Origin: Candidatus Shapirobacteria bacterium
Lineage (GTDB): Bacteria; Patescibacteriota; Microgenomatia; UBA12405
Direction: 5' to 3'
Assembly (NCBI GenBank): GCA_016188545.1
Contig: JACPHO010000001.1
Span: forward strand, 419,324-483,323
DNA: 64,000 nt
The notes under the pieces are model-generated. The model made no database searches and was not told where the DNA came from. It worked only from the letters and a program-made list of their open reading frames with translations. A program made the translations under genes and the position numbers. This document shows positions 7,688-16,234 of this stretch, piece by piece (the stretch's first letter is position 1; every line of letters begins with the position of its first letter).

Positions 7688-8032
7688 GTGACAAAACGTT
7701 CAAAAGGCCAGGAGTTTCACTTTAGTCCTGCGGTACTCCTACGCTTTATAATTTTTGTAATTGTGGTCTATCTTTCAATTAGTTATTTTAGTGCTTCCGA
7801 AGTAACAGTTAATTTACCACTTCCAAACCTTGTTCAATACTTACCTCCCCGTTCACAGCAAGTGTTGGGAGAAACTTCAGAGTATATCAACTCATCTCAA
7901 CTTTCAGACAAATTTACTGAGTTTTCATCCTATGTTCAAGAGTTTCCCCAAAAACATCTAAAACAACTAAAAATTGATATTATCAACCGATTGGCAAAAG
8001 AATTAATAAATCGCATCGACAGTCAGAAATGA
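7688..8032 (+). CDS. Hypothetical membrane protein (GTG start)
   Basis: ORF with one TM segment. Its stop overlaps the prfB start (ATGA). Confidence 0.3.
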
Positions 8033-9102
8033 TCGAACTAAACAAATTAAAACTAAACCTGGAAAGTATTAAGTTAAAACTTAATTATGCACAGTTAGTC
8101 AGTGAGGCTGAAGAACTTAGAGGCAAGTCTGAAAACCCTGATATTTGGAATGACCCAGCAAAGGCCAGCGAGACAATGCAAAGCCTTAGTTCGAGGGACA
8201 AAACTATTCAAAATATTAAAGACGTAGAAAACAAACTAATTGAAGTTACTGAACTTGTTGATGTGTTTGGCCAGTCAAAGGATGAAAACTTTCAAATAGA
8301 GATAGAAAAATCTCATTCTGACATTCAAAAGCGGATTGAAGAACTAGAGCTAGAGACTTACCTCTGTGGTAAGTACGATAAGAACCAGGCTTTTCTCTCA
8401 GTTCACGCCGGGCAAGGCGGCACTGAGGCCATGGATTGGGCGTCCATGCTTCAAAGAATGTATATGCGTTATTTCGAGCGCAAAGAGTGGAAATACGAAA
8501 TGCTTGATATGAATCCGGGAGATGAAGCAGGGATAAAATCAGCCTATTTTAAAATCACTGTCCCAAATTCCTATGGTTATCTTCGAAACGAAAACGGAGC
8601 TCATCGCTTAGTCAGACTTTCCCCATTCAATGCCGATCAGTTGCGTCAAACATCTTTTGCAAAGGTTGAAGTTACCCCAGTAATCAACAATGCGACCGAA
8701 ATTGATATTCGACCCGAAGACATCGAATTTTCAGCCTTTAGAGCCGGCGGACATGGCGGACAGAATGTCAACAAAGTAAGCACTGCAGTTCGACTTACTC
8801 ACACCCCATCTGGACTAACTGTTTCTTGCCAATCACAGCGTTCACAAGATCAAAATAGGCTAGTAGCTATGGAGATGTTATCTTCTAAGCTCTGGGCAAT
8901 GGAACAAGAAAAACAGTCAAAAGAAAATCAATCAATAAAAGGAGACAATATTATCGCCGGGTGGGGACACCAAATCAGGTCTTATGTTCTTCATCCATAC
9001 AAGATGGTCAAAGACCTAAGAACAAAGCACGAAACCTCCGACACAGTTGGTGTTTTAGACGGAGATCTTGATGAATTTATCAAATCCGAGCTAAAATTGT
9101 AA
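8029..9102 (+). CDS. prfB: Peptide chain release factor 2, uninterrupted (no programmed +1 frameshift)
   Basis: SPF motif ([20 protein letters not shown]) and GGQ motif ([26 protein letters not shown]). The N-terminus is in frame with no CTT-TGA-C slippery site. Confidence 0.9.
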
Positions 9103-10124
9103 TGAAAAAAAACATTTTAATTTTAGTTATATTCGTCTTATCGTTTTTACTTTTTATTTTTTACTTTTTATTTTACAAGATATCGTCGTATACACATACC
9201 CGCATTTCTCATTTTCCCACAACATTAATAAAGTCATACCAGCACCCCACTTTAGCTCCTGGTTTTAACTTTGTTATGCTCGGAGTTGATCCCAGAGACG
9301 ACCAGCTTGAGAAAACCCAAGTTTCAGATAGTATTATTGTCGGCCGCCTCACCTCATCTCGGCAAGTCAAACTTATTTCAATACCTCGTGATTTATGGGT
9401 TTATTCACTTGAAACAAAAGTAAACCAAATTTACCCGCTCTCACAAGATAAGGTTAGTCCAGTTCAGAGCTATCAATATATCGAAGACGAATTCACCAAG
9501 TTAACAGGTCAAAAAATAAGCCGAACTTTGATACTAACTACTGACAACCTTATAGAGCTCACAAAAATAATCGGTGGAGTCGATGTTGTTCAGGAGTCGA
9601 CTTACACGGACTTGTTTTATCCAAATCCTGAATATGTTAAAAATCCCTCGCCCAAAATCCCCATCTACAAAACAGTTATCTTTCCCAAGGGTTTACTCCA
9701 CTTAGACGAGTCCAATATTACTGAGTATGTTCGGTCCCGCAAAGGCCAAAATGAAGAAGGAAGTGGTAGTAGCGACCAGGGAAGAATCCAGCGCCAGCAA
9801 CTATTATTGGAAGCTCTGATATCAAAACTAAAATCTCCTGCGTTTATATCAAGTCCAACCAATGTTCTTACTTTATATAATTTTTGGCATCAGAGTATCC
9901 GCACAAATATTAGTGATAGTGATTTATTTAGCCTTCTACTTTCCGGCAAAAAACAGATACTCGGGCTTACCCTAACCAAAACCAATGTTCCGGTAGGAGA
10001 AAACCCCAAGAAAGATATTCTTTATCACCCTCGGTCATTCATCAACAGGCAGTGGGTTTATATCCCAGTCGACAAAGAATATAAAGGTCTTCAGGAGTAT
10101 ATTTCCGGTTTTCTTAACCAATAA
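9102..10124 (+). CDS. LytR-CpsA-Psr (LCP) family cell-envelope glycopolymer ligase
   Basis: N-terminal TM anchor, then MLGVDPRDD...SDSIIVGRL...ISIPRD, as in LCP domains. Confidence 0.75.
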   Translation: MKKNILILVIFVLSFLLFIFYFLFYKISSYTHTRISHFPTTLIKSYQHPTLAPGFNFVMLGVDPRDDQLEKTQVSDSIIVGRLTSSRQVKLISIPRDLWVYSLETKVNQIYPLSQDKVSPVQSYQYIEDEFTKLTGQKISRTLILTTDNLIELTKIIGGVDVVQESTYTDLFYPNPEYVKNPSPKIPIYKTVIFPKGLLHLDESNITEYVRSRKGQNEEGSGSSDQGRIQRQQLLLEALISKLKSPAFISSPTNVLTLYNFWHQSIRTNISDSDLFSLLLSGKKQILGLTLTKTNVPVGENPKKDILYHPRSFINRQWVYIPVDKEYKGLQEYISGFLNQ

Positions 10125-10151
10125 TTTGCTATACTGGATTATTAGCATTTA

Positions 10152-10646
10152 TTGATTCACATGGACATACCCAATCTCTCTACTGATAAGCCAAAAACCC
10201 CACCTGCAGATATAAATTTTTCACTCATGCCTATTGTTATTGTATTAGTTTTGGCGCTTGTTTCCGGATTTTGGATCTCAAGATTTTTCCCAATTAATAA
10301 AACCGTAGCAGACAAAGCTACAACTACCACCACCGAGGGTCAGACCGTAATTTCCACCGATAAAATCAGCAGTGCTGACGAAATTAAAGCTGGCAAGGTA
10401 TATGGCAATGCCGAAAAAAGCTTTAAAGACTCAGCTACTGGCGTCGTTGAGAAGGGATCAATCAATGGTGAGGGTACCCACATACTCAACCGAGAGGGTG
10501 GACTTAGTCAGCGAGCCTCACTAATTTCTTCTACGGTAGACCTAGATTTATTTGTTGGTAAAAAAGTCGAGATCAAAGGTGAAACTAATGCCTCAAATAA
10601 AACATCTTGGCTTTTGGACGTTGGTAGTCTTAAGGTACTTGAATAA
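10152..10646 (+). CDS. Hypothetical membrane-anchored protein
   Basis: Single N-terminal TM segment. The rest is Thr/Ser-rich and presumably extracytoplasmic. Confidence 0.35.
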   Translation: MIHMDIPNLSTDKPKTPPADINFSLMPIVIVLVLALVSGFWISRFFPINKTVADKATTTTTEGQTVISTDKISSADEIKAGKVYGNAEKSFKDSATGVVEKGSINGEGTHILNREGGLSQRASLISSTVDLDLFVGKKVEIKGETNASNKTSWLLDVGSLKVLE

Positions 10647-10648
10647 AA

Positions 10649-11356
10649 ATGAATGTATTATTTAAAGATGTCAGTAAGCACTTTGGTTCTATCAAAGCGC
10701 TCGAAAACCTTAACTTTGAAGTAAAGACAGGTGACTTTGTCTTTATAGTCGGTTCTTCTGGTGCCGGCAAATCTACCTTACTCAAGATGATCTTAAGTCA
10801 GTACCGACCTAGTACCGGCGAAATCTACATAGATGGCCATCTACTTAACTTTAAAAACAAACATCTAATCGACAAACTCCGCCAAAATATCGGCGTAATC
10901 TTTCAAGATTATCAGCTTATAGCTGATAAAACAGTCGAAGAAAATATCGCCCTCGCTTTAGATATCAACGGCTTTCCAAGTAGGGAGATCCCGCAGCGTG
11001 TTGATAAGGCCATAGATCAGGTATTTCTTCAAAGCCGTCGCCACCTTTTCCCGGCTCAGTTATCAGGTGGTGAACTTCAGCGAGCAGCTCTAGCCAGAGC
11101 CCTGGCTATTGATCCAAAGCTTATTCTAGCCGACGAACCCACCGGTAACCTTGATCCTGAAAACTCTTGGAATCTAATTAAGCTTCTAAAGGAAATTAAT
11201 GAGTCAAGGGGAACTACTATTATTATGACTACACACAACTTTGACATTGTTGAGTCACTCAATAAGCGTAAAATTACTATGAAAAATGGAACCATTGTCA
11301 ATGACACAATTAAAAAAGTCGTCAAAAAATTAAAGAAGAAAAAAATCAAAAAATGA
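10649..11356 (+). CDS. ftsE: Cell-division ABC ATPase FtsE
   Basis: Walker A GSSGAGKSTLLK. ABC signature LSGGELQRAALARALAIDPKLILADEPTGNLD. Followed by an FtsX-like permease. Confidence 0.85.
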   Translation: MNVLFKDVSKHFGSIKALENLNFEVKTGDFVFIVGSSGAGKSTLLKMILSQYRPSTGEIYIDGHLLNFKNKHLIDKLRQNIGVIFQDYQLIADKTVEENIALALDINGFPSREIPQRVDKAIDQVFLQSRRHLFPAQLSGGELQRAALARALAIDPKLILADEPTGNLDPENSWNLIKLLKEINESRGTTIIMTTHNFDIVESLNKRKITMKNGTIVNDTIKKVVKKLKKKKIKK

Positions 11357-12225
11357 ACATCTATCGCAACACTTGGCATCACATCCGTCGTTCTCCATTC
11401 CAAAGTATTACGGCGATAGTTACCATGACTCTAAGCTTTTTCGCCTTAAGTACTTTTGCCATAGTCAGTAATGGCATGAATTCTCTACTAAACTATTTCG
11501 AGACCAAGCCCGAAATAACCATCTTTCTTAAAGATGGCCTTGATAAATCCACCATTGAGAACCTCCAGACCGAGATCAGTAATTACACATCGATCAAAGA
11601 AATAAAATTCATCTCAAAAGAAAAAGCCTTGACTATATATAAAGAACAAAATAAAAACAGTCCACTCCTTACCGAGATGGTCACTGCCAGTATCCTTCCC
11701 GCTTCGTTTGAGGTTTCAGTATCTGACGTCAAGGTCCTAGAACAAATCTCTCAAAATTTCTCTGCAAAAAAAGATCAAGTAGACGAGATTATTTATCAAA
11801 AAGATATTATTACCTCCATACTATCCTGGACTAATATTATCCGACAGATTGGTATTGTTACCGTTACTATTTTTAGCGGTTTGACGTTCTTAGTTGTTCT
11901 GGTCATTATCGGTATGAAGATCACCAACCGTAAAGAAGAGATCAATATTAGCCGTCTTTTAGGCGCGTCAAAGGATTATGTTAAAGCCCCGTTTTTAATT
12001 GAAGGAACTATCTATGGTCTAGTAGGTGGATTTCTAGGCCCACTGGTCAGTTTAACGCTCATTAGTATTTATAAGTCACAAATCAATCAGTTCTTCGACC
12101 CAGTATTATTTATTTCGACCGATCTTCAATTCATTCTGGTTATTTGGCTAATCTGCGAAGCAGCCGGGGTCACCATTGGCTATCTTAGTAGCTGGATTGG
12201 CTCAAATAGGTATATAAAATTCTAA
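11353..12225 (+). CDS. ftsX: Cell-division permease FtsX
   Basis: ATGA-coupled to ftsE. N-terminal TM, a large loop, then three C-terminal TM helices, which is the FtsX topology. Confidence 0.7.
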   Translation: MNIYRNTWHHIRRSPFQSITAIVTMTLSFFALSTFAIVSNGMNSLLNYFETKPEITIFLKDGLDKSTIENLQTEISNYTSIKEIKFISKEKALTIYKEQNKNSPLLTEMVTASILPASFEVSVSDVKVLEQISQNFSAKKDQVDEIIYQKDIITSILSWTNIIRQIGIVTVTIFSGLTFLVVLVIIGMKITNRKEEINISRLLGASKDYVKAPFLIEGTIYGLVGGFLGPLVSLTLISIYKSQINQFFDPVLFISTDLQFILVIWLICEAAGVTIGYLSSWIGSNRYIKF

Positions 12226-12229
12226 TCAA

Positions 12230-13339
12230 ATGAAACGAACATTACTATGTTTGTTCCTATGTTTCAGTCTATTTTTACCACAAGTTGTAAGGGCAGAAGA
12301 AACAATCGACGAACTAAAAAATACCATTGCCGAACTTGATAAGAAAATATTAGAACTTGGAAAGGCAAAGGATACCTTAGCCAATCAGATAACTCTTCTC
12401 AATTCTCAAGTTTCCCTTACACTTCTAAAAGTCTCACAAACCGAATCTTCAATCAAAATAACTGAGACAGAAATCATTGACCTTGGGGGTAAAATTAGTG
12501 TCCTCGATACTTCCCTGAATCAGCTTTCATCGAAATTTATTGCCGAAATTATTGAGAACTACAAGTTATCAAAAAAATATTCTGGTCTAAGTATCTTTGT
12601 TTCACATAATTTCAACGAATTCTGGCAACAGTACAAATATATCAGCCTGATTCAAAAAAACAGCCAAGACTCACTTATGAACATGGAAACTGTCAGGTTA
12701 AATTACGACACTCAAAAACAACAAAAGCAGAAGAAACAACAAGAATTAGAAGCCTTAAAAGTCAGGCTCGCCGATCAGAAAAATAGTCTTACTAAGCAAA
12801 AACTTACCAAAGCCAACCTTCTTGAAGTAACGAAAAACAACGAAGCAACATATCAAAAACTCAAAGCAGAAGCACAATCTGAACTTGAAGCCCTTCAAAC
12901 CGCAGTCTTTGACGGCAAACGAACCGTTAAAAAAGGCGATCAACTTGGAATCATGGGTAACACAGGCTTTTCATATGGTGCTCACTTGCACTTTGGTTTA
13001 TACAATCTAACTGAAGGCGGACTATCATCATTCTCATACCCAAATGACATCGACGCTTCAGGATTTTTAAATGCTCACAGTTGGCCAATGAAAGATTACA
13101 TTATTACCCAGGGAAGAGGTCACACTAAATACTCCAGTATGTACAGTGATGGTTTTCACCATGGCATAGATATGGCCTCAAACACCAACAAGACACTGTA
13201 TGCAGTTGAAGACGGCGTTGCTTATTTCTTTAGAGATAAATATCCCGGGAGAAGAGTAGGTAACGGTAATCACGTCAAGCTATTTCACGCCGATGGCAAA
13301 ATGACGCTTTATCTACACTTGGATAAGTTCTACAAGTAA
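12230..13339 (+). CDS. Secreted coiled-coil peptidase M23 (PcsB/EnvC-like FtsEX partner); M23 segments appear in permuted order
   Basis: Signal peptide, ~200 aa coiled coil, then KKGDQLGIMGNTGFSYGAHLHFGLY (M23 C-terminal HxH block) before GFHHGIDMA...LFHADGKMTLYLHL (M23 N-terminal HxxxD block). Confidence 0.8.
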   Translation: MKRTLLCLFLCFSLFLPQVVRAEETIDELKNTIAELDKKILELGKAKDTLANQITLLNSQVSLTLLKVSQTESSIKITETEIIDLGGKISVLDTSLNQLSSKFIAEIIENYKLSKKYSGLSIFVSHNFNEFWQQYKYISLIQKNSQDSLMNMETVRLNYDTQKQQKQKKQQELEALKVRLADQKNSLTKQKLTKANLLEVTKNNEATYQKLKAEAQSELEALQTAVFDGKRTVKKGDQLGIMGNTGFSYGAHLHFGLYNLTEGGLSSFSYPNDIDASGFLNAHSWPMKDYIITQGRGHTKYSSMYSDGFHHGIDMASNTNKTLYAVEDGVAYFFRDKYPGRRVGNGNHVKLFHADGKMTLYLHLDKFYK

Positions 13340-13342
13340 CTT

Positions 13343-13957
13343 TTAGTACCCTCTAATCAATTTTCGGAGCACTAGGGCTCCAGAAGTTAGTGACAAGATA
13401 AAGGCACTATTTAGTATCAAACCTGCAGAGCTACCAGTTACTGGCATTGAAGGTTTCTCCACAAAATAGCTAGCATCATCACAATCGCTGACAGTTACGT
13501 TTTTAGCACAAACGTTGTTGGTCAATTTCATTAATTGAGAATAACTAGTTTTTGGTAAGTCCCTAACTATTGCAATTATGTAGTAATTCTTTTTTTCGCC
13601 AGGTTTTAGTACTGGAATAACTGTCTCGATATTTGTTTTATCTGAAGTTACCTTTCCAAAAAAGTATTGTAGTTTCAAATAAGCAGGTAATCTATCTACG
13701 ACATTCAAATCATAAATAGTGCTTGATCCACGATTATCGATAACTATAGAAAACTCGATTTGATCACCCTCTTTAAAGACGTAGTCTGACTTGGAAACAT
13801 TGTCCAACAGGATGTCTTTGTTAGGCAACTTAATTTTTTTATCTACTACGATAATTGGGGCACTAGAATCATTACCATAATATTGCGCCATGACATTAGA
13901 TGGTGTGTAAAATACACCGATGGCTAAGAGTAAAGCGATAATTGTTTTTGTTTTCAT
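13343..13957 (-). CDS. Secreted DUF11-like surface protein with C-terminal sortase sorting signal (MPVTG)
   Basis: Signal peptide. The pattern FSIVIDNRGSSTIYDLNVVDRLPAYL resembles the DUF11 repeat. C-terminal MPVTG is followed by a hydrophobic stretch and an RKLIRGY tail. Confidence 0.55.
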   Translation of the reverse strand: MKTKTIIALLLAIGVFYTPSNVMAQYYGNDSSAPIIVVDKKIKLPNKDILLDNVSKSDYVFKEGDQIEFSIVIDNRGSSTIYDLNVVDRLPAYLKLQYFFGKVTSDKTNIETVIPVLKPGEKKNYYIIAIVRDLPKTSYSQLMKLTNNVCAKNVTVSDCDDASYFVEKPSMPVTGSSAGLILNSAFILSLTSGALVLRKLIRGY

Positions 13958-14064: not shown

Positions 14065-14793
14065 ATGTCAGATTACATTCTCGAAAGTCTTTCTGTATTT
14101 TTTCCTTGTTACAACGAAGAAAAAAATATTGAATCAACTTTCAACAAAGCCCTGCCAATATTACAAAAAGTAGCTAAAAACTGGGAAATAATTCTAGTTA
14201 ATGATGGTTCAAAAGATAATACCCTCAAGATCCTTCAAAAACTTAAAAAAGCCCATCCCCAGCAAGTTACGATCGTCAACCATACCCAAAACAGGGGATA
14301 CGGAGCTGCCTTCAAATCAGGTGTCTATACCGCTAAATATCCCTGGATTACCTTTACTGACGCTGATGGCCAGTTTGACTTTAATGAAATACATAAACTA
14401 GTTGCCACTCAGAAAAAAACCAATGCTGACCTGGTCATTGGTTTTTATAACGTCAGACAAGTCCCTGCATTCCGTATTTGGGGTTCAGCAGCCTGGCAAC
14501 TAGCCGTATTTATTCTATTTGGCCTAAGAGTCAAAGATATTGACTGTGGATTTAAGCTTTTTCGCAAAGAAGTCATCGACACCATTCCTCATCTGGAAGC
14601 TGAAAGGGGACCATTTATTTCTTCTGAATTCCTTCTAAAAGCCAAAAAGAAGAAATTTAAAATTGTCGAAATAGGTGTCACTCACTTTAGTCGCCAAGCC
14701 GGTAATGGTACTGGAGCCAACTTTGATGTAGTTTTAGCCGGACTAGTAGATCTTCTTCGTCTTTGGTTCAAAGTCAACTTCACCAAATCATAA
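14065..14793 (+). CDS. GT2 polyprenyl-phosphate sugar synthase (DPM1/GtrB/CsbB-like)
   Basis: CYNEE...NDGSKDNT...TDADGQFD...DCGFKLFRKEV motifs of DPM1-like GT2. Immediately upstream of a GT-C membrane protein. Confidence 0.72.
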   Translation: MSDYILESLSVFFPCYNEEKNIESTFNKALPILQKVAKNWEIILVNDGSKDNTLKILQKLKKAHPQQVTIVNHTQNRGYGAAFKSGVYTAKYPWITFTDADGQFDFNEIHKLVATQKKTNADLVIGFYNVRQVPAFRIWGSAAWQLAVFILFGLRVKDIDCGFKLFRKEVIDTIPHLEAERGPFISSEFLLKAKKKKFKIVEIGVTHFSRQAGNGTGANFDVVLAGLVDLLRLWFKVNFTKS

Positions 14794-14794
14794 A

Positions 14795-16234
14795 ATGATA
14801 TTTTTACGTAAAAATTGGCAAATAATCTTAATTATTCTAATAGCCAGTTTTGTTAGATTTTTCCATCTTTACGATTACGCTGAGTTCCTGGGTGACCAAG
14901 GCCGAGACGTAGTCATTGTTAGAGAGTTTCTCAGACACGGTAATCTTTTCTTTATCGGCCCTCAAACTAGTATTGGCAATATGTATTTGGGACCATTTTA
15001 TTACTATTTGTTTGTCGCCCCCGGACTTATTCTTAGCTGGTTCAATCCAATTGGACCTGCCATTGTAGTGGCTATTCTCGGGGTACTTACTGTCTATCTT
15101 GTCTATACTTACTCCTTAGAATGGTTTGACCATAAAACAGCCATGATCGCCAGTCTTATCTTTGCCCTATCGCCAGTAGTAATTAAATATTCCACATTTT
15201 CGTGGAATCCCAATGTCATGCCTCTGTTTTCGCTATTATTCATCCATTATCTTCTAAAATCTCGATATATTTTAGCCACCATCGCCTTCATAATTTGTCT
15301 CAATGCCCACTTTTTAGCGCTTCTACTTCTACCAGTAGGTTTTATCATTGTTGTTTTCAAAAAACCATTTCCTTACCGTGCCCTAATACTGCCATTTGTC
15401 ATTCTTTTGGCTTCGTTTATACCGCAGTTACTTTTTGATTTTAAACACCAAGGTCAAAATATTAATGCTTTTGTTTCCTTTTTTACCAAAAGAGAAACTA
15501 CTATTAACCTAAAACCATATAAAGCCATACCGCTAATGGTGCCTCTTTTTAATCAAGTTACCACTAGGCTAGTTGCCGGAAAAGACGTAATTGTCGGCTA
15601 CTTTATCAGCACTATCTTTGGCTCAACTTTGATATTTATTCTATACCAGCAGTTTAAAAAACGTAAATTCGACCCTCATTTTCTAATGCTTTCCTCCTGG
15701 CTATTGATTGGTCTAGTAGGATTAGCGTTGTACAAACAGCACATCTATGATCATTACTTTGGCTTTTTGTATCCCGCTATCATTATTCTTTTCGCCTACC
15801 TAATCACACGTTTGCCAAAGTTTTTATCAACTATCATCACCATCTTTGTAGTCATTATATCTTTAGTTCAAAACCCGTTACGCTGGTCACCACCGCGTCA
15901 ATTATGGACAACTCAAGAAATTACTAAGCAAATAGTTGCTTCTTCAGAAAATAAACCATTCAACTTCTCCCTATTAGCAAAAATGAACTATGATCCTGGT
16001 TACCGCTATTTCTTTTCCGAATCAAATGCACCAGTCAGATTACTTCAAGATGAAATAACCGAACAACTCTTTGTCGCTTGTGAGCCTTTTCAAATGGACT
16101 GTAACCCCATCAATAACCCTGAGTGGGGGATAGCTGCCTTTGGCTGGGCTAAAATTGACAAAGAGTGGGAAGTGAATGGAATAAAAATATTCCGTTTAGT
16201 CCACAACCAAACAGGTGAAAAAGTAATAAATTAG
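14795..16234 (+). CDS. Polytopic membrane protein, putative GT-C fold glycosyltransferase (PMT_2-like)
   Basis: ~12 predicted TM segments. First loop FLGDQGRD...GNMYLGPFYYYLF is paralogous to the loop in the 16249..17721 protein. Confidence 0.5.
   Translation: MIFLRKNWQIILIILIASFVRFFHLYDYAEFLGDQGRDVVIVREFLRHGNLFFIGPQTSIGNMYLGPFYYYLFVAPGLILSWFNPIGPAIVVAILGVLTVYLVYTYSLEWFDHKTAMIASLIFALSPVVIKYSTFSWNPNVMPLFSLLFIHYLLKSRYILATIAFIICLNAHFLALLLLPVGFIIVVFKKPFPYRALILPFVILLASFIPQLLFDFKHQGQNINAFVSFFTKRETTINLKPYKAIPLMVPLFNQVTTRLVAGKDVIVGYFISTIFGSTLIFILYQQFKKRKFDPHFLMLSSWLLIGLVGLALYKQHIYDHYFGFLYPAIIILFAYLITRLPKFLSTIITIFVVIISLVQNPLRWSPPRQLWTTQEITKQIVASSENKPFNFSLLAKMNYDPGYRYFFSESNAPVRLLQDEITEQLFVACEPFQMDCNPINNPEWGIAAFGWAKIDKEWEVNGIKIFRLVHNQTGEKVIN

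What the first reader, a model, noticed from the sequence alone, without database searches (positions are those of the whole stretch)
12911..13339. Apparent circular permutation of the M23/LytM domain in the FtsEX-associated coiled-coil hydrolase
In canonical M23 domains (LytM, NlpD, EnvC) the HxxxD block (GxHxGxD) comes first. The GxTGxSTGPHxHF block with the HxH pair is near the C-terminal end. Here the order is reversed. KKGDQLGIMGNTGFSYGAHLHFGLY (about nt 12930-13000) precedes GFHHGIDMA...GNGNHVKLFHADGKMTLYLHL (about nt 13150-13330), and the protein ends right after. This looks like a permuted domain, for example from tandem duplication followed by truncation at both ends. It may alter how the active site is gated by the preceding coiled coil.
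Basis: seen in the sequence. Interest (0 to 1): 0.65.

Follow-up and report, generated by a model that had tools for sequence, protein, structure and literature searches.

The report
Circularly permuted M23 hydrolase beside FtsEX
The cell-wall-cutting protein encoded next to the division transporter FtsEX in this candidate-phyla-radiation bacterium has its zinc-peptidase (M23) domain stitched together in swapped order, a real rearrangement conserved in hundreds of related genomes that keeps every catalytic residue and that I found described nowhere in the papers I could search.

Summary
ORF 12230-13339 (+, 369 aa) lies 4 nt after ftsX. It encodes a signal peptide, a long EnvC/PcsB-like coiled coil and an M23 domain in swapped order. 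The last third (beta-hairpin and HxH, residues 226-258) comes first. The first two-thirds (HxxxD to YxHL, residues 284-364) come last, and the protein ends 5 residues later.

Pfam and PDB searches hit two pieces in swapped order. When I re-join the pieces in canonical order, they give one contiguous M23 match (73 versus 63.7 bits). Each profile position occurs once, so this is a true permutation and not a partial duplication.

It is not an artefact. 231 fetched proteins share the same cut point (profile position 60|61), and the genome scan confirmed 201 relatives of the protein. Named sources are all Patescibacteria: Microgenomates lineages, WWE3, CPR3 and Berkelbacteria. ftsE-ftsX-gene order holds in 62 of 66 loci that can be judged. 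All five metal and catalytic residues are conserved.

The most likely reading is an active, FtsEX-coupled septal peptidoglycan endopeptidase derived from the canonical coiled-coil-M23 proteins of the ftsEX cluster.

The parts
10649..11356 (+). ftsE, the ABC ATPase. Its stop overlaps the ftsX start.
   Evidence: Pfam ABC_tran, E = 2.3e-35. It is syntenic in related loci.
11353..12225 (+). ftsX, the permease with an extracellular domain.
   Evidence: Pfam FtsX_ECD (E = 3.4e-15, residues 54-144) and FtsX (E = 3.6e-11).
12230..13339 (+). Whole gene for the coiled-coil plus circularly permuted M23 protein (369 aa), starting 4 nt after the ftsX stop.
   Evidence: The product is 100% identical to P0001, named 'peptidoglycan DD-metalloendopeptidase family protein [Candidatus Shapirobacteria bacterium]'.
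12230..12295 (+). N-terminal signal peptide (residues 1-22, MKRTLLCLFLCFSLFLPQVVRA|EE).
   Evidence: Read directly from the sequence: a hydrophobic core and a VRA site. The AF2 model has a helix at 2-14 followed by a low-confidence stretch at 17-23. No signal-peptide predictor was run.
12299..12898 (+). Antiparallel coiled coil (residues 24-223; helices 26-45, 50-116, 128-201 and 205-223).
   Evidence: AF2 full-length model, pLDDT 87. Best Foldseek PDB hits are EnvC in the FtsEX-EnvC complex (8tzl_E, E = 1.6e-5) and 6tpi_A, followed by the RipA N-terminal domain and PcsB. Family members match Pfam CC_PcsB in the same region.
12905..13003 (+). Relocated C-terminal third of M23 (residues 226-258): the beta-hairpin V..G..VKKGD.LG and GNTG.S.G-H252-L-H254-F.
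   Evidence: It aligns to M23 profile positions 59-96 and to TagE 126-154. H252 and H254 are invariant. The AF2 model has strands at 226-233, 238-242 and 253-258.
13004..13078 (+). Junction (residues 259-283). The old C-terminal tail of M23 (..YPNDIDASGFL) runs straight into the old N-terminal leader.
   Evidence: Zoocin A aligns through query residue 280 (231-280 to chain 99-146). M23 N-terminal leaders align from query residue 279-284 onward. Some homologues carry 13-15 aa insertions exactly here.
13079..13321 (+). Relocated N-terminal two-thirds of M23 (residues 284-364): WP..ITQGRG leader, H310-H-G-I-D314, GNGNH348, and YL-H363-L.
   Evidence: Pfam profile 2-55. PDB M23 alignments. D314 and H363 are invariant, and H310 is conserved in at least 90% of sequences.
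13322..13339 (+). Short C-terminal tail (DKFYK) and the TAA stop. Most homologues end one residue after YxHL.
   Evidence: median of 0 residues after the second HMM hit.

Best explanation
The gene encodes the FtsEX-partner cell-wall hydrolase of this Patescibacteria (Shapirobacteria) genome. It is a secreted protein with an EnvC/PcsB-type antiparallel coiled coil, followed by a catalytically intact but circularly permuted M23 (LytM-type) zinc endopeptidase domain.

Anatomy (shown). The chain break of the domain lies in the loop right after the strand that carries the catalytic His of YxHL (profile position 60|61). The old N- and C-termini are joined head to tail with essentially no spacer. As a result, the last coiled-coil helix (205-223) runs within 2-3 residues into the beta-hairpin that leads to the HxH motif. 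The protein ends 1-6 residues after catalytic His363.

Mechanism (inferred from the E. coli/V. cholerae FtsEX-EnvC, pneumococcal FtsEX-PcsB and mycobacterial FtsEX-RipC paradigms). The coiled coil docks on the FtsX extracellular domain. ATP turnover by FtsE changes the coiled-coil conformation and relieves autoinhibition. The M23 domain then itself cleaves peptidoglycan peptide cross-links at the septum, rather than activating an amidase as the degenerate EnvC domain does.

Origin (inferred). It descends from the canonical coiled-coil-M23 gene of the ftsE-ftsX-(M23)-ctpB cluster, most simply by tandem duplication of the M23 module and loss of the outer parts. This probably happened once, early in Patescibacteria.
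For: Permutation:
- Pfam and PDB matches come as two pieces in swapped order.
- The de-permuted sequence gives one contiguous M23 match with a higher score.
- Profile positions 59-96 and then 2-62 are each covered once.

Reality and conservation:
- 119 of the 120 closest homologues are permuted.
- 231 of 401 fetched proteins are permuted with the same cut point. The first hit starts at median profile position 61, the second ends at median position 60, and a median of 0 residues follow it.
- The genome scan matched 211 stretches, and 201 of them encode a relative of the query. Record titles name Shapiro-, Woese-, Collier-, Levy-, Pace- and Roizmanbacteria and WWE3. CPR3 and Berkelbacteria appear.
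- The SecA next to the distant member P0229 groups with Patescibacteria and Berkelbacteria.
- The window protein and P0229 align colinearly end to end, permuted order included (E = 7e-29).

FtsEX link:
- Gene order ftsE-ftsX-gene with 4 nt between ftsX and this gene.
- The same order in 62 of 66 loci with enough flank and in three distant loci.

Catalytic competence:
- H252, H254, D314 and H363 are invariant and H310 is conserved in at least 90% of 52 sequences at 51-87% identity.

Architecture:
- AF2 full-length model pLDDT 87, with best PDB matches EnvC in FtsEX complexes.
- Domain-only model pLDDT 94.2, pTM 0.90, containing all canonical M23 strands in permuted order.

Descent from canonical coiled-coil-M23:
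- The next-best relatives of P0229 are canonical-order proteins of Bacillota and others named EnvC-family.
- They are colinear in the coiled coil and in the HxxxD-YxH part, with the HxH part transposed.
- CC_PcsB is shared.
- The spacing between pieces (median 43 residues) is about the canonical tail (15) plus leader, and is similar to natural tandem M23-M23 proteins (median 52).
Against: - No biochemical data exist for any member.
- The window protein itself does not reach any threshold for Pfam CC_PcsB. It scores far below the NCBIfam EnvC cut-off (16.6 against 270), so FtsX binding rests on gene order and fold analogy.
- A neighbour-joining tree of de-permuted domains puts 5 consensus-like permuted sequences outside the main permuted clade of 65. 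A single origin is therefore not resolved.
- No coiled-coil-M23-M23 intermediate was seen.
Confidence: 0.8

Rival explanations
1. It is a non-catalytic amidase activator like E. coli EnvC. The permuted LytM domain would only bind and activate another hydrolase.
For: The overall architecture and the best structural matches are EnvC in FtsEX complexes. Some source annotations call relatives 'septal ring factor EnvC (AmiA/AmiB activator)' or 'murein hydrolase activator EnvC family protein'.
Against: EnvC-type activators have lost the metal ligands. Here the HxxxD, YxH and HxH residues are invariant or nearly invariant across the family. The NCBIfam EnvC model scores 16.6 against a cut-off of 270. 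No amidase was looked for outside this window.
Confidence: 0.12
2. It is a sequencing, assembly or annotation artefact, or a decaying gene. Examples would be a frameshift that merged two genes, or a truncated tandem duplicate.
For: None was found. The idea is only raised by the unusual motif order.
Against: The same arrangement, the same cut point and the same C-terminus occur in 231 independent proteins from many assemblies and sources, down to about 27% identity. There is one uninterrupted ORF, and a convergent gene ends 3 nt downstream, leaving no room for a lost 3' part. Each M23 profile position is present exactly once.
Confidence: 0.01
3. The two pieces do not fold together within one chain. 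The protein would complete its M23 fold by domain swapping in a dimer, with the HxH piece of one chain pairing with the HxxxD/YxH piece of another. Assembly of the active site would then depend on FtsEX-driven dimer geometry.
For: FtsX is a dimer. The structural check against PDB was inconclusive. The free C-terminal strand carries a catalytic His.
Against: The AF2 monomer model of the domain is compact and very confident (pLDDT 94.2, pTM 0.90). The junction retains a full tail and leader that connect the pieces in cis. In the EnvC complexes that were the best structural matches (8tzl, 6tpi), one EnvC binds an FtsX dimer; that stoichiometry is from my recollection of the published structures and was not checked here.
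Confidence: 0.05
4. The permuted form arose several times independently, because the 60|61 loop is the only permissive cut site. It would then not be a single Patescibacteria-wide event.
For: Five consensus-like permuted sequences fall among canonical domains in the neighbour-joining tree. Tandem M23-M23 raw material is common.
Against: The cut point and architecture are identical, and full-length alignment between the most distant subfamilies is colinear. All members with a taxonomic label are Patescibacteria. The 96-column NJ tree has little resolving power and is prone to long-branch effects.
Confidence: 0.15

Closest known systems
Canonical coiled-coil + M23 proteins encoded after ftsEX in Bacillota and other phyla. 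They are annotated 'murein hydrolase activator EnvC family protein' or 'peptidoglycan DD-metalloendopeptidase family protein', for example P0349 and P0353 of Keratinibaculum.
   Same: They share the signal peptide, a CC_PcsB-type coiled coil of the same length, intact HxxxD/YxH/HxH residues and a total length of 370-400 aa. They also share the position after ftsE-ftsX and often before a ctpB-like S41 protease.
   Different: Their M23 domain is in the canonical order (one Pfam stretch, 2-96). In the window protein the last 36 profile positions are moved in front of the first 60, and the protein ends at YxHL.
E. coli / V. cholerae / P. aeruginosa EnvC (FtsEX-EnvC-amidase system; PDB 6TPI, 8TZL)
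   Same: It is the best structural match to the full-length model. Both have a long antiparallel coiled coil that binds the FtsX extracellular domain, followed by a LytM-type domain.
   Different: From published work on EnvC (not tested here), its LytM domain is canonical in order but degenerate, with no metal ligands, and it activates the amidases AmiA and AmiB. Tested here: the window protein keeps its ligands, its order is permuted, and the NCBIfam EnvC model is far below threshold.
PcsB (S. pneumoniae), CwlO (B. subtilis), RipC/RipA (mycobacteria): FtsEX-dependent hydrolases
   Same: All are a coiled-coil lever plus a catalytic peptidoglycan hydrolase domain controlled by FtsEX. The PcsB and RipA coiled coils appear among the Foldseek hits. 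Pfam CC_PcsB is detected in family members.
   Different: Their catalytic domain is CHAP or NlpC/P60 (a cysteine peptidase), not an M23 zinc peptidase.
Circularly permuted NlpC/P60 families (YaeF/poxvirus G6R and LRAT-like; Anantharaman and Aravind 2003, as cited in PMC6403190)
   Same: They are a precedent for a cell-wall peptidase superfamily in which the catalytic residues are swapped in sequence by circular permutation.
   Different: They have a different fold and chemistry and no FtsEX coupling.
[quoted passage not shown]
   Same: That paper includes an M23 peptidase (A0A0E3QUJ6) in its structure-derived alignment of HABAS domains and reports three HABAS topologies related by circular permutation. 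The relocated piece contains the GD-box-like hairpin.
   Different: The passages I read assign variant topologies to NusG and the RNA-polymerase beta-uD5 domain, not to M23. Those permutations relate different families. This one lies within the M23 family, with all catalytic residues retained.

Membership tests
Peptidase family M23 (Pfam PF01551; LytM/lysostaphin type) | Sequence match above the curated Pfam gathering score. | tested here: met
   59.8 bits against a cut-off of 28.7, in two stretches. The de-permuted sequence scores 73 bits in one stretch.
Peptidase family M23 (Pfam PF01551; LytM/lysostaphin type) | Zinc ligands: H and D of HxxxD, and the second H of HxH. | tested here: met
   H310 and D314 (HHGID) and H254 (HLH) are present. 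D314 and H254 are invariant and H310 is at least 90% conserved in 52 homologues.
Peptidase family M23 (Pfam PF01551; LytM/lysostaphin type) | Catalytic histidines: the first H of HxH and the H of YxH. | tested here: met
   H252 and H363 are invariant. The assignment of their roles comes from LytM literature knowledge (H291 and H260) and was not tested here.
Peptidase family M23 (Pfam PF01551; LytM/lysostaphin type) | Canonical linear order HxxxD, then YxH, then HxH. | tested here: not met
   The order here is HxH (252), HxxxD (310), YxH (361-363).
Peptidase family M23 (Pfam PF01551; LytM/lysostaphin type) | The M23 three-dimensional fold with the five residues around one metal site. | tested here: inconclusive
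Peptidase family M23 (Pfam PF01551; LytM/lysostaphin type) | Zinc-dependent peptidoglycan endopeptidase activity. | not testable with these tools
   This needs biochemistry.
EnvC (murein hydrolase activator, NCBIfam NF008644) | Match to the curated EnvC model. | tested here: not met
   16.6 bits against a cut-off of 270, in the coiled-coil region only.
EnvC (murein hydrolase activator, NCBIfam NF008644) | Signal peptide plus a long antiparallel coiled coil of the FtsX-binding type. | tested here: met
   AF2 helices at 26-116 and 128-201. The top Foldseek hits are 8tzl_E and 6tpi_A.
EnvC (murein hydrolase activator, NCBIfam NF008644) | A degenerate LytM domain lacking metal ligands that activates amidases. 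| tested here: not met
   The ligands are intact and conserved. Amidase activation is not testable here.
FtsEX-dependent hydrolase systems (EnvC, PcsB, CwlO, RipC) | Functional or genetic coupling to ftsE-ftsX. | tested here: met
   The gene is adjacent, with a 4-nt gap. Synteny holds in 62 of 66 related loci and in 3 distant loci. Physical interaction was not tested.
FtsEX-dependent hydrolase systems (EnvC, PcsB, CwlO, RipC) | A PcsB-type coiled-coil module (Pfam PF24568, CC_PcsB). | tested here: inconclusive
   It is not reported for the window protein even at E <= 10. It is above threshold in the permuted relative P0140 (30.2 against 27) and sub-threshold in P0160 and P0287, at the equivalent position.

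The most novel reading that the evidence does not exclude
The permutation is not neutral. It is a rewiring of FtsEX control.

The chain break sits in the loop next to the catalytic His of YxHL. The coiled-coil lever is therefore welded directly to the active-site hairpin, and the His363-bearing strand becomes a free C-terminal end. FtsEX-driven movement of the coiled coil could then assemble or distort the catalytic centre itself. That would be a gating mechanism distinct from the restraining-arm occlusion of EnvC.

The arrangement would also be a deep shared derived character of a large part of the Patescibacteria.
Probability: 0.2. Interest if true: 0.75.

Novelty: new variant of a known kind. 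Interest (0 to 1): 0.55.

Why it matters
M23/LytM peptidases are among the best-studied cell-wall hydrolases, for example lysostaphin, LytM, ShyA, MepM and EnvC. As far as I could find, they are always described with one linear motif order. This family shows that the fold tolerates a cut right beside a catalytic histidine.

The variant has replaced the canonical form in the one M23 protein that is wired to the division ABC transporter FtsEX, across several major lineages of the candidate phyla radiation.

Three practical consequences follow:
- Annotation. Domain models report two half-hits or a truncated domain, and motif-order rules would mis-score these proteins.
- Mechanism. It offers a natural experiment on how coiled-coil movement is transmitted to a hydrolase active site.
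- Taxonomy. It gives a discrete, easily scored character for Patescibacteria phylogeny.

It is not a new kind of system. The parts and the likely function are known.

Tried and rejected
1. Structural confirmation.
- Foldseek of the domain model against PDB returned only noise, with best E = 2. I treat this as inconclusive and not as evidence against the fold, because more than 25 PDB M23 chains match by sequence.
- Foldseek against viral models returned cyanopodovirus virion proteins with TMq 0.5-0.6. I checked Synechococcus phage P60 gp33: it has no HxH or HxxxD motif and no M23 HMM hit. This is not a phage M23 relative.

2. Phage homologues by tblastn. Only the HxH part plus tail matches, inside Arthrobacter phage tape-measure proteins. 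No permuted phage copy was found.

3. A second M23 gene or a leftover fragment in the window. None was found in the six-frame ORFs.

4. Single-origin test by a neighbour-joining tree of de-permuted domains. The result is unresolved: 65 of 70 sequences form one pure clade and 5 consensus-like sequences fall outside it.

5. Organism names for the distant subfamilies through cluster look-ups. These gave almost no names. SecA of the neighbouring gene was used instead.

6. Literature. Five full-text searches combined permutation terms with M23, LytM, peptidase M23 and EnvC, and CPR with M23. None found a description of a permuted M23. The held library is incomplete, so this is absence of evidence only.

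7. Rejected readings:
- The first block belongs to another domain (rejected).
- Frameshift or gene fusion (rejected).
- Partial tandem duplication (rejected because profile coverage is exactly once).

Full report
**The locus.** Three tightly packed genes lie on the + strand.
- ftsE is at 10649-11356 (Pfam ABC_tran).
- ftsX is at 11353-12225 (Pfam FtsX_ECD and FtsX).
- A 369-codon ORF follows at 12230-13339, four nucleotides after ftsX.
- A convergent DUF11 gene ends at 13343, three nucleotides after the ORF's TAA.
- The window is 38% G+C.
- The ORF product is 100% identical to a protein on a 564-kb contig labelled Candidatus Shapirobacteria.

**Checking the observation.** The protein reads as signal peptide (1-22), then about 200 residues of helix, then ...VFDGKRTVKKGDQLGIMGNTGFSYGAHLHFGLY (226-258). 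After that come ...NDIDASGFLNAHSWPMKDYIITQGRGHTKYSSMYSDGFHHGIDMA...GNGNHVKLFHADGKMTLYLHLDKFYK and the stop.
- Pfam Peptidase_M23 is well above threshold but split into two stretches, the best being residues 309-367 on profile 2-55 of 96.
- phmmer against PDB chains shows the swap directly. In TagE (5j1l_A), chain residues 63-119 align to query 308-367 and chain residues 126-154 align to query 232-260. Four further M23 chains were printed: two show both pieces clearly, and in the other two the second piece is very weak.
- I built an HMM in canonical order from canonical and de-permuted domains. It hits the ORF at profile 59-96 first and 2-62 second, so the domain is present exactly once and nothing is duplicated.
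- I then cut and re-joined the sequence in silico (residues 284-369 followed by 226-283). Pfam then reports one stretch covering profile 2-89 at 73 bits, against 63.7 bits in two stretches for the native order.
- PDB M23 domains align across the artificial junction without a gap, for example ...YLHLDKFYK|VFDGKRTVKKGD to ...YAHLNKIV-VKTG-EFVKKGQ. E improves from 4e-07 for the whole native protein to 5e-12.

**Not an artefact.**
- The whole-protein search returned 286 homologues. All of the best 120 cover 91-100% of the query, and 119 of them have HxH before HxxxD. Most end one residue after YxHL.
- Across all 401 proteins fetched by that point, 231 are permuted, 138 canonical and 20 tandem.
- In the permuted ones the first HMM hit starts at median profile position 61. 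The second ends at median position 60, with a median of zero residues after it.
- The cut site is therefore the same everywhere, between ...YAHLS and KLKVKEGQ... of the consensus.
- In a 52-sequence alignment (51-87% identity to the window protein), H252, H254, D314 and H363 are invariant and H310 is at least 90% conserved.

**Distribution.**
- The scan of species-representative genomes matched 211 stretches, of which 201 encode a relative. Informative record titles name Shapiro-, Woese-, Collier-, Levy-, Pace- and Roizmanbacteria, WWE3 and 'Patescibacteria group'. Many MAGs from one project carry an implausible 'Gammaproteobacteria' placeholder.
- An exhaustive search with the domain alone placed about 60 permuted clusters (at 50% identity) among the best 150 hits. 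These include a CPR3 protein and a subfamily with a Cys-rich insert and HPAxD in place of HxGxD.
- A consensus-like distant member, P0229, has 49 further permuted relatives, including a Berkelbacteria protein. Only after those come canonical-order proteins of Bacillota, Syntrophomonadaceae and others.
- SecA encoded next to P0229 is closest to Patescibacteria and Berkelbacteria SecA.
- Every member with a usable label is therefore from the candidate phyla radiation. A 'Patescibacteria group' protein with a canonical-type C-terminus also exists (P0376; my motif rule could not class it).

**Context.**
- ftsE-ftsX-gene order holds in 62 of the 66 related loci that have enough upstream sequence.
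- It also holds in three distant loci, two of which continue with a ctpB-like S41 protease.
- In the window, a release factor gene, a LytR_cpsA_psr gene and a small membrane protein precede ftsE.

**Architecture.**
- The full-length AlphaFold model (pLDDT 87) has helices 26-45, 50-116, 128-201 and 205-223, and then the beta domain.
- Its best PDB matches are EnvC in the V. cholerae FtsEX-EnvC complex and E. coli EnvC bound to the FtsX periplasmic domain. The RipA N-terminal domain and PcsB follow.
- The domain-only model is very confident (pLDDT 94.2, pTM 0.90). It contains, in permuted order, the hairpin, the HLHF strand, the short tail helices and the five strands of the HxxxD-to-YxHL part.
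- The viral library returned cyanophage virion proteins that turned out to lack any M23 signature.
- This is the main gap in the case.

**The junction and the origin.**
- The stretch after HLHF aligns with the canonical M23 C-terminal tail up to about residue 280, for example to zoocin A.
- Canonical N-terminal leaders (WP..g.it..fG) align from residue 279-284.
- The old ends are therefore joined head to tail with about four residues between the conserved tail and leader motifs.
- Some homologues carry 13-15-residue insertions exactly there, as expected for a newly made surface link.
- The distance from the end of the HxH part to the start of the HxxxD part has a median of 43 residues. That is roughly the canonical tail (median 15) plus the leader, and it is similar to the inter-domain distance in natural tandem M23-M23 proteins (median 52).
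- Tandem M23-M23 proteins are common in the library.
- Against a canonical Bacillota relative, the window protein is colinear through the coiled coil and the HxxxD-YxH part, while its HxH segment matches the relative's C-terminus.
- Against the distant permuted P0229 it is colinear end to end (E = 7e-29).
- All this fits duplication of the M23 module followed by loss of the outer parts, probably once. No intermediate was found, and a neighbour-joining tree of the 96 domain columns cannot settle single against multiple origin.

**Function.**
- Shown: the gene order, the EnvC/PcsB-like coiled coil and conserved catalytic residues.
- Inferred from the FtsEX-EnvC, FtsEX-PcsB and FtsEX-RipC paradigms: the coiled coil binds the FtsX extracellular domain, and ATP turnover by FtsE switches the hydrolase on.
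- Because the metal ligands and catalytic histidines are retained, I expect the protein to cut peptidoglycan cross-links itself rather than to activate an amidase.
- A geometric consequence follows directly from homology. In the canonical domain, residues equivalent to 364-369 and 224-226 are covalently adjacent. Here, therefore, the end of the last coiled-coil helix and the free C-terminus both sit next to the catalytic His363.
- Whether this is exploited for gating is speculation.

**Novelty.**
- Members are in public databases under generic M23 or EnvC names.
- Five full-text searches found no description of a permuted M23/LytM domain.
- Known precedents are the permuted NlpC/P60 families and permutation among hybrid-motif (HABAS) domains. 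The HABAS paper includes an M23 peptidase in its structural alignment of those domains.
- I class this as a new variant of a known kind. It is moderately interesting for structural evolution, annotation and the mechanics of FtsEX-controlled hydrolases.

Noticed in passing
window 13343-13957 (-): A convergent 204-aa DUF11-domain protein ends in ...EKPSMPVTGSSAGLILNSAFILSLTSGALVLRKLIRGY. That is an LPXTG-like (PVTG) motif, a hydrophobic segment and a basic tail, which looks like a sortase-type cell-wall sorting signal. Its stop is 3 nt from the M23 gene's stop.
   Followed up: no
window 8029-10646 (+): A peptide-chain release factor gene (PCRF + RF-1), a LytR_cpsA_psr gene and a 164-aa single-pass membrane protein with no Pfam match lie directly upstream of ftsE. 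A release factor gene also precedes ftsEX in the distant locus L085.
   Followed up: partly
window 1-64000: There is no tRNA gene and no Rfam family at gathering threshold in the whole 64 kb.
   Followed up: no
proteins P0140, P0143, P0144, P0149, P0165, P0216 (representative library): A permuted subfamily has HPAxD in place of HxGxD. It also carries Cys-rich additions (..W.TGC.....C[KR]NC.GDG[GA]NG..), which could form disulfides or a second metal site. Its taxonomy is unknown.
   Followed up: no
alignment A1, columns about 340-355 (P0091, P0104, P0108, P0117): Cys-containing insertions of 13-15 residues sit exactly at the junction between the old C-terminal tail and the old N-terminal leader of the permuted domain.
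   Followed up: no
proteins P0148, P0162, P0180, P0223, P0233, P0249 and others: Natural tandem M23-M23 proteins, some fused to other modules, are frequent among relatives. 20 of the 401 fetched proteins are of this kind. They are the raw material for permutation by duplication.
   Followed up: partly
L083 6934-8181 and L085 6167-7372: In distant permuted loci a ctpB-like PDZ + S41 protease gene lies just downstream of the M23 gene: directly after it in L085, and after one 240-aa gene with no Pfam match in L083. The window has no such gene there.
   Followed up: no
BFVD hits A0A510E7V3_3, H6WFX6 (cyanophage S-TIM5), L0CQF1 (Synechococcus phage P60 gp33; L086 22777-25779): The permuted-domain model aligns over its full length (TMq 0.48-0.61) to a domain of roughly 1000-aa cyanophage virion proteins, one of them from the T7-like (Autographiviridae) phage P60. 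P60 gp33 has no M23 motifs and no M23 HMM hit. The resemblance is unexplained.
   Followed up: partly
window 14065-16234 (+): A family-2 glycosyltransferase is followed by a 479-aa protein with no Pfam match whose sequence looks strongly hydrophobic by eye (no transmembrane prediction was run). It might be a lipid-linked-sugar transferase.
   Followed up: no
loci L011-L014, L018, L020 and others (genome contigs): Many MAGs that carry this Patescibacteria-type gene cluster have record titles reading 'uncultured Gammaproteobacteria bacterium'. The label appears to be a placeholder or a mislabel in those submissions.
   Followed up: no
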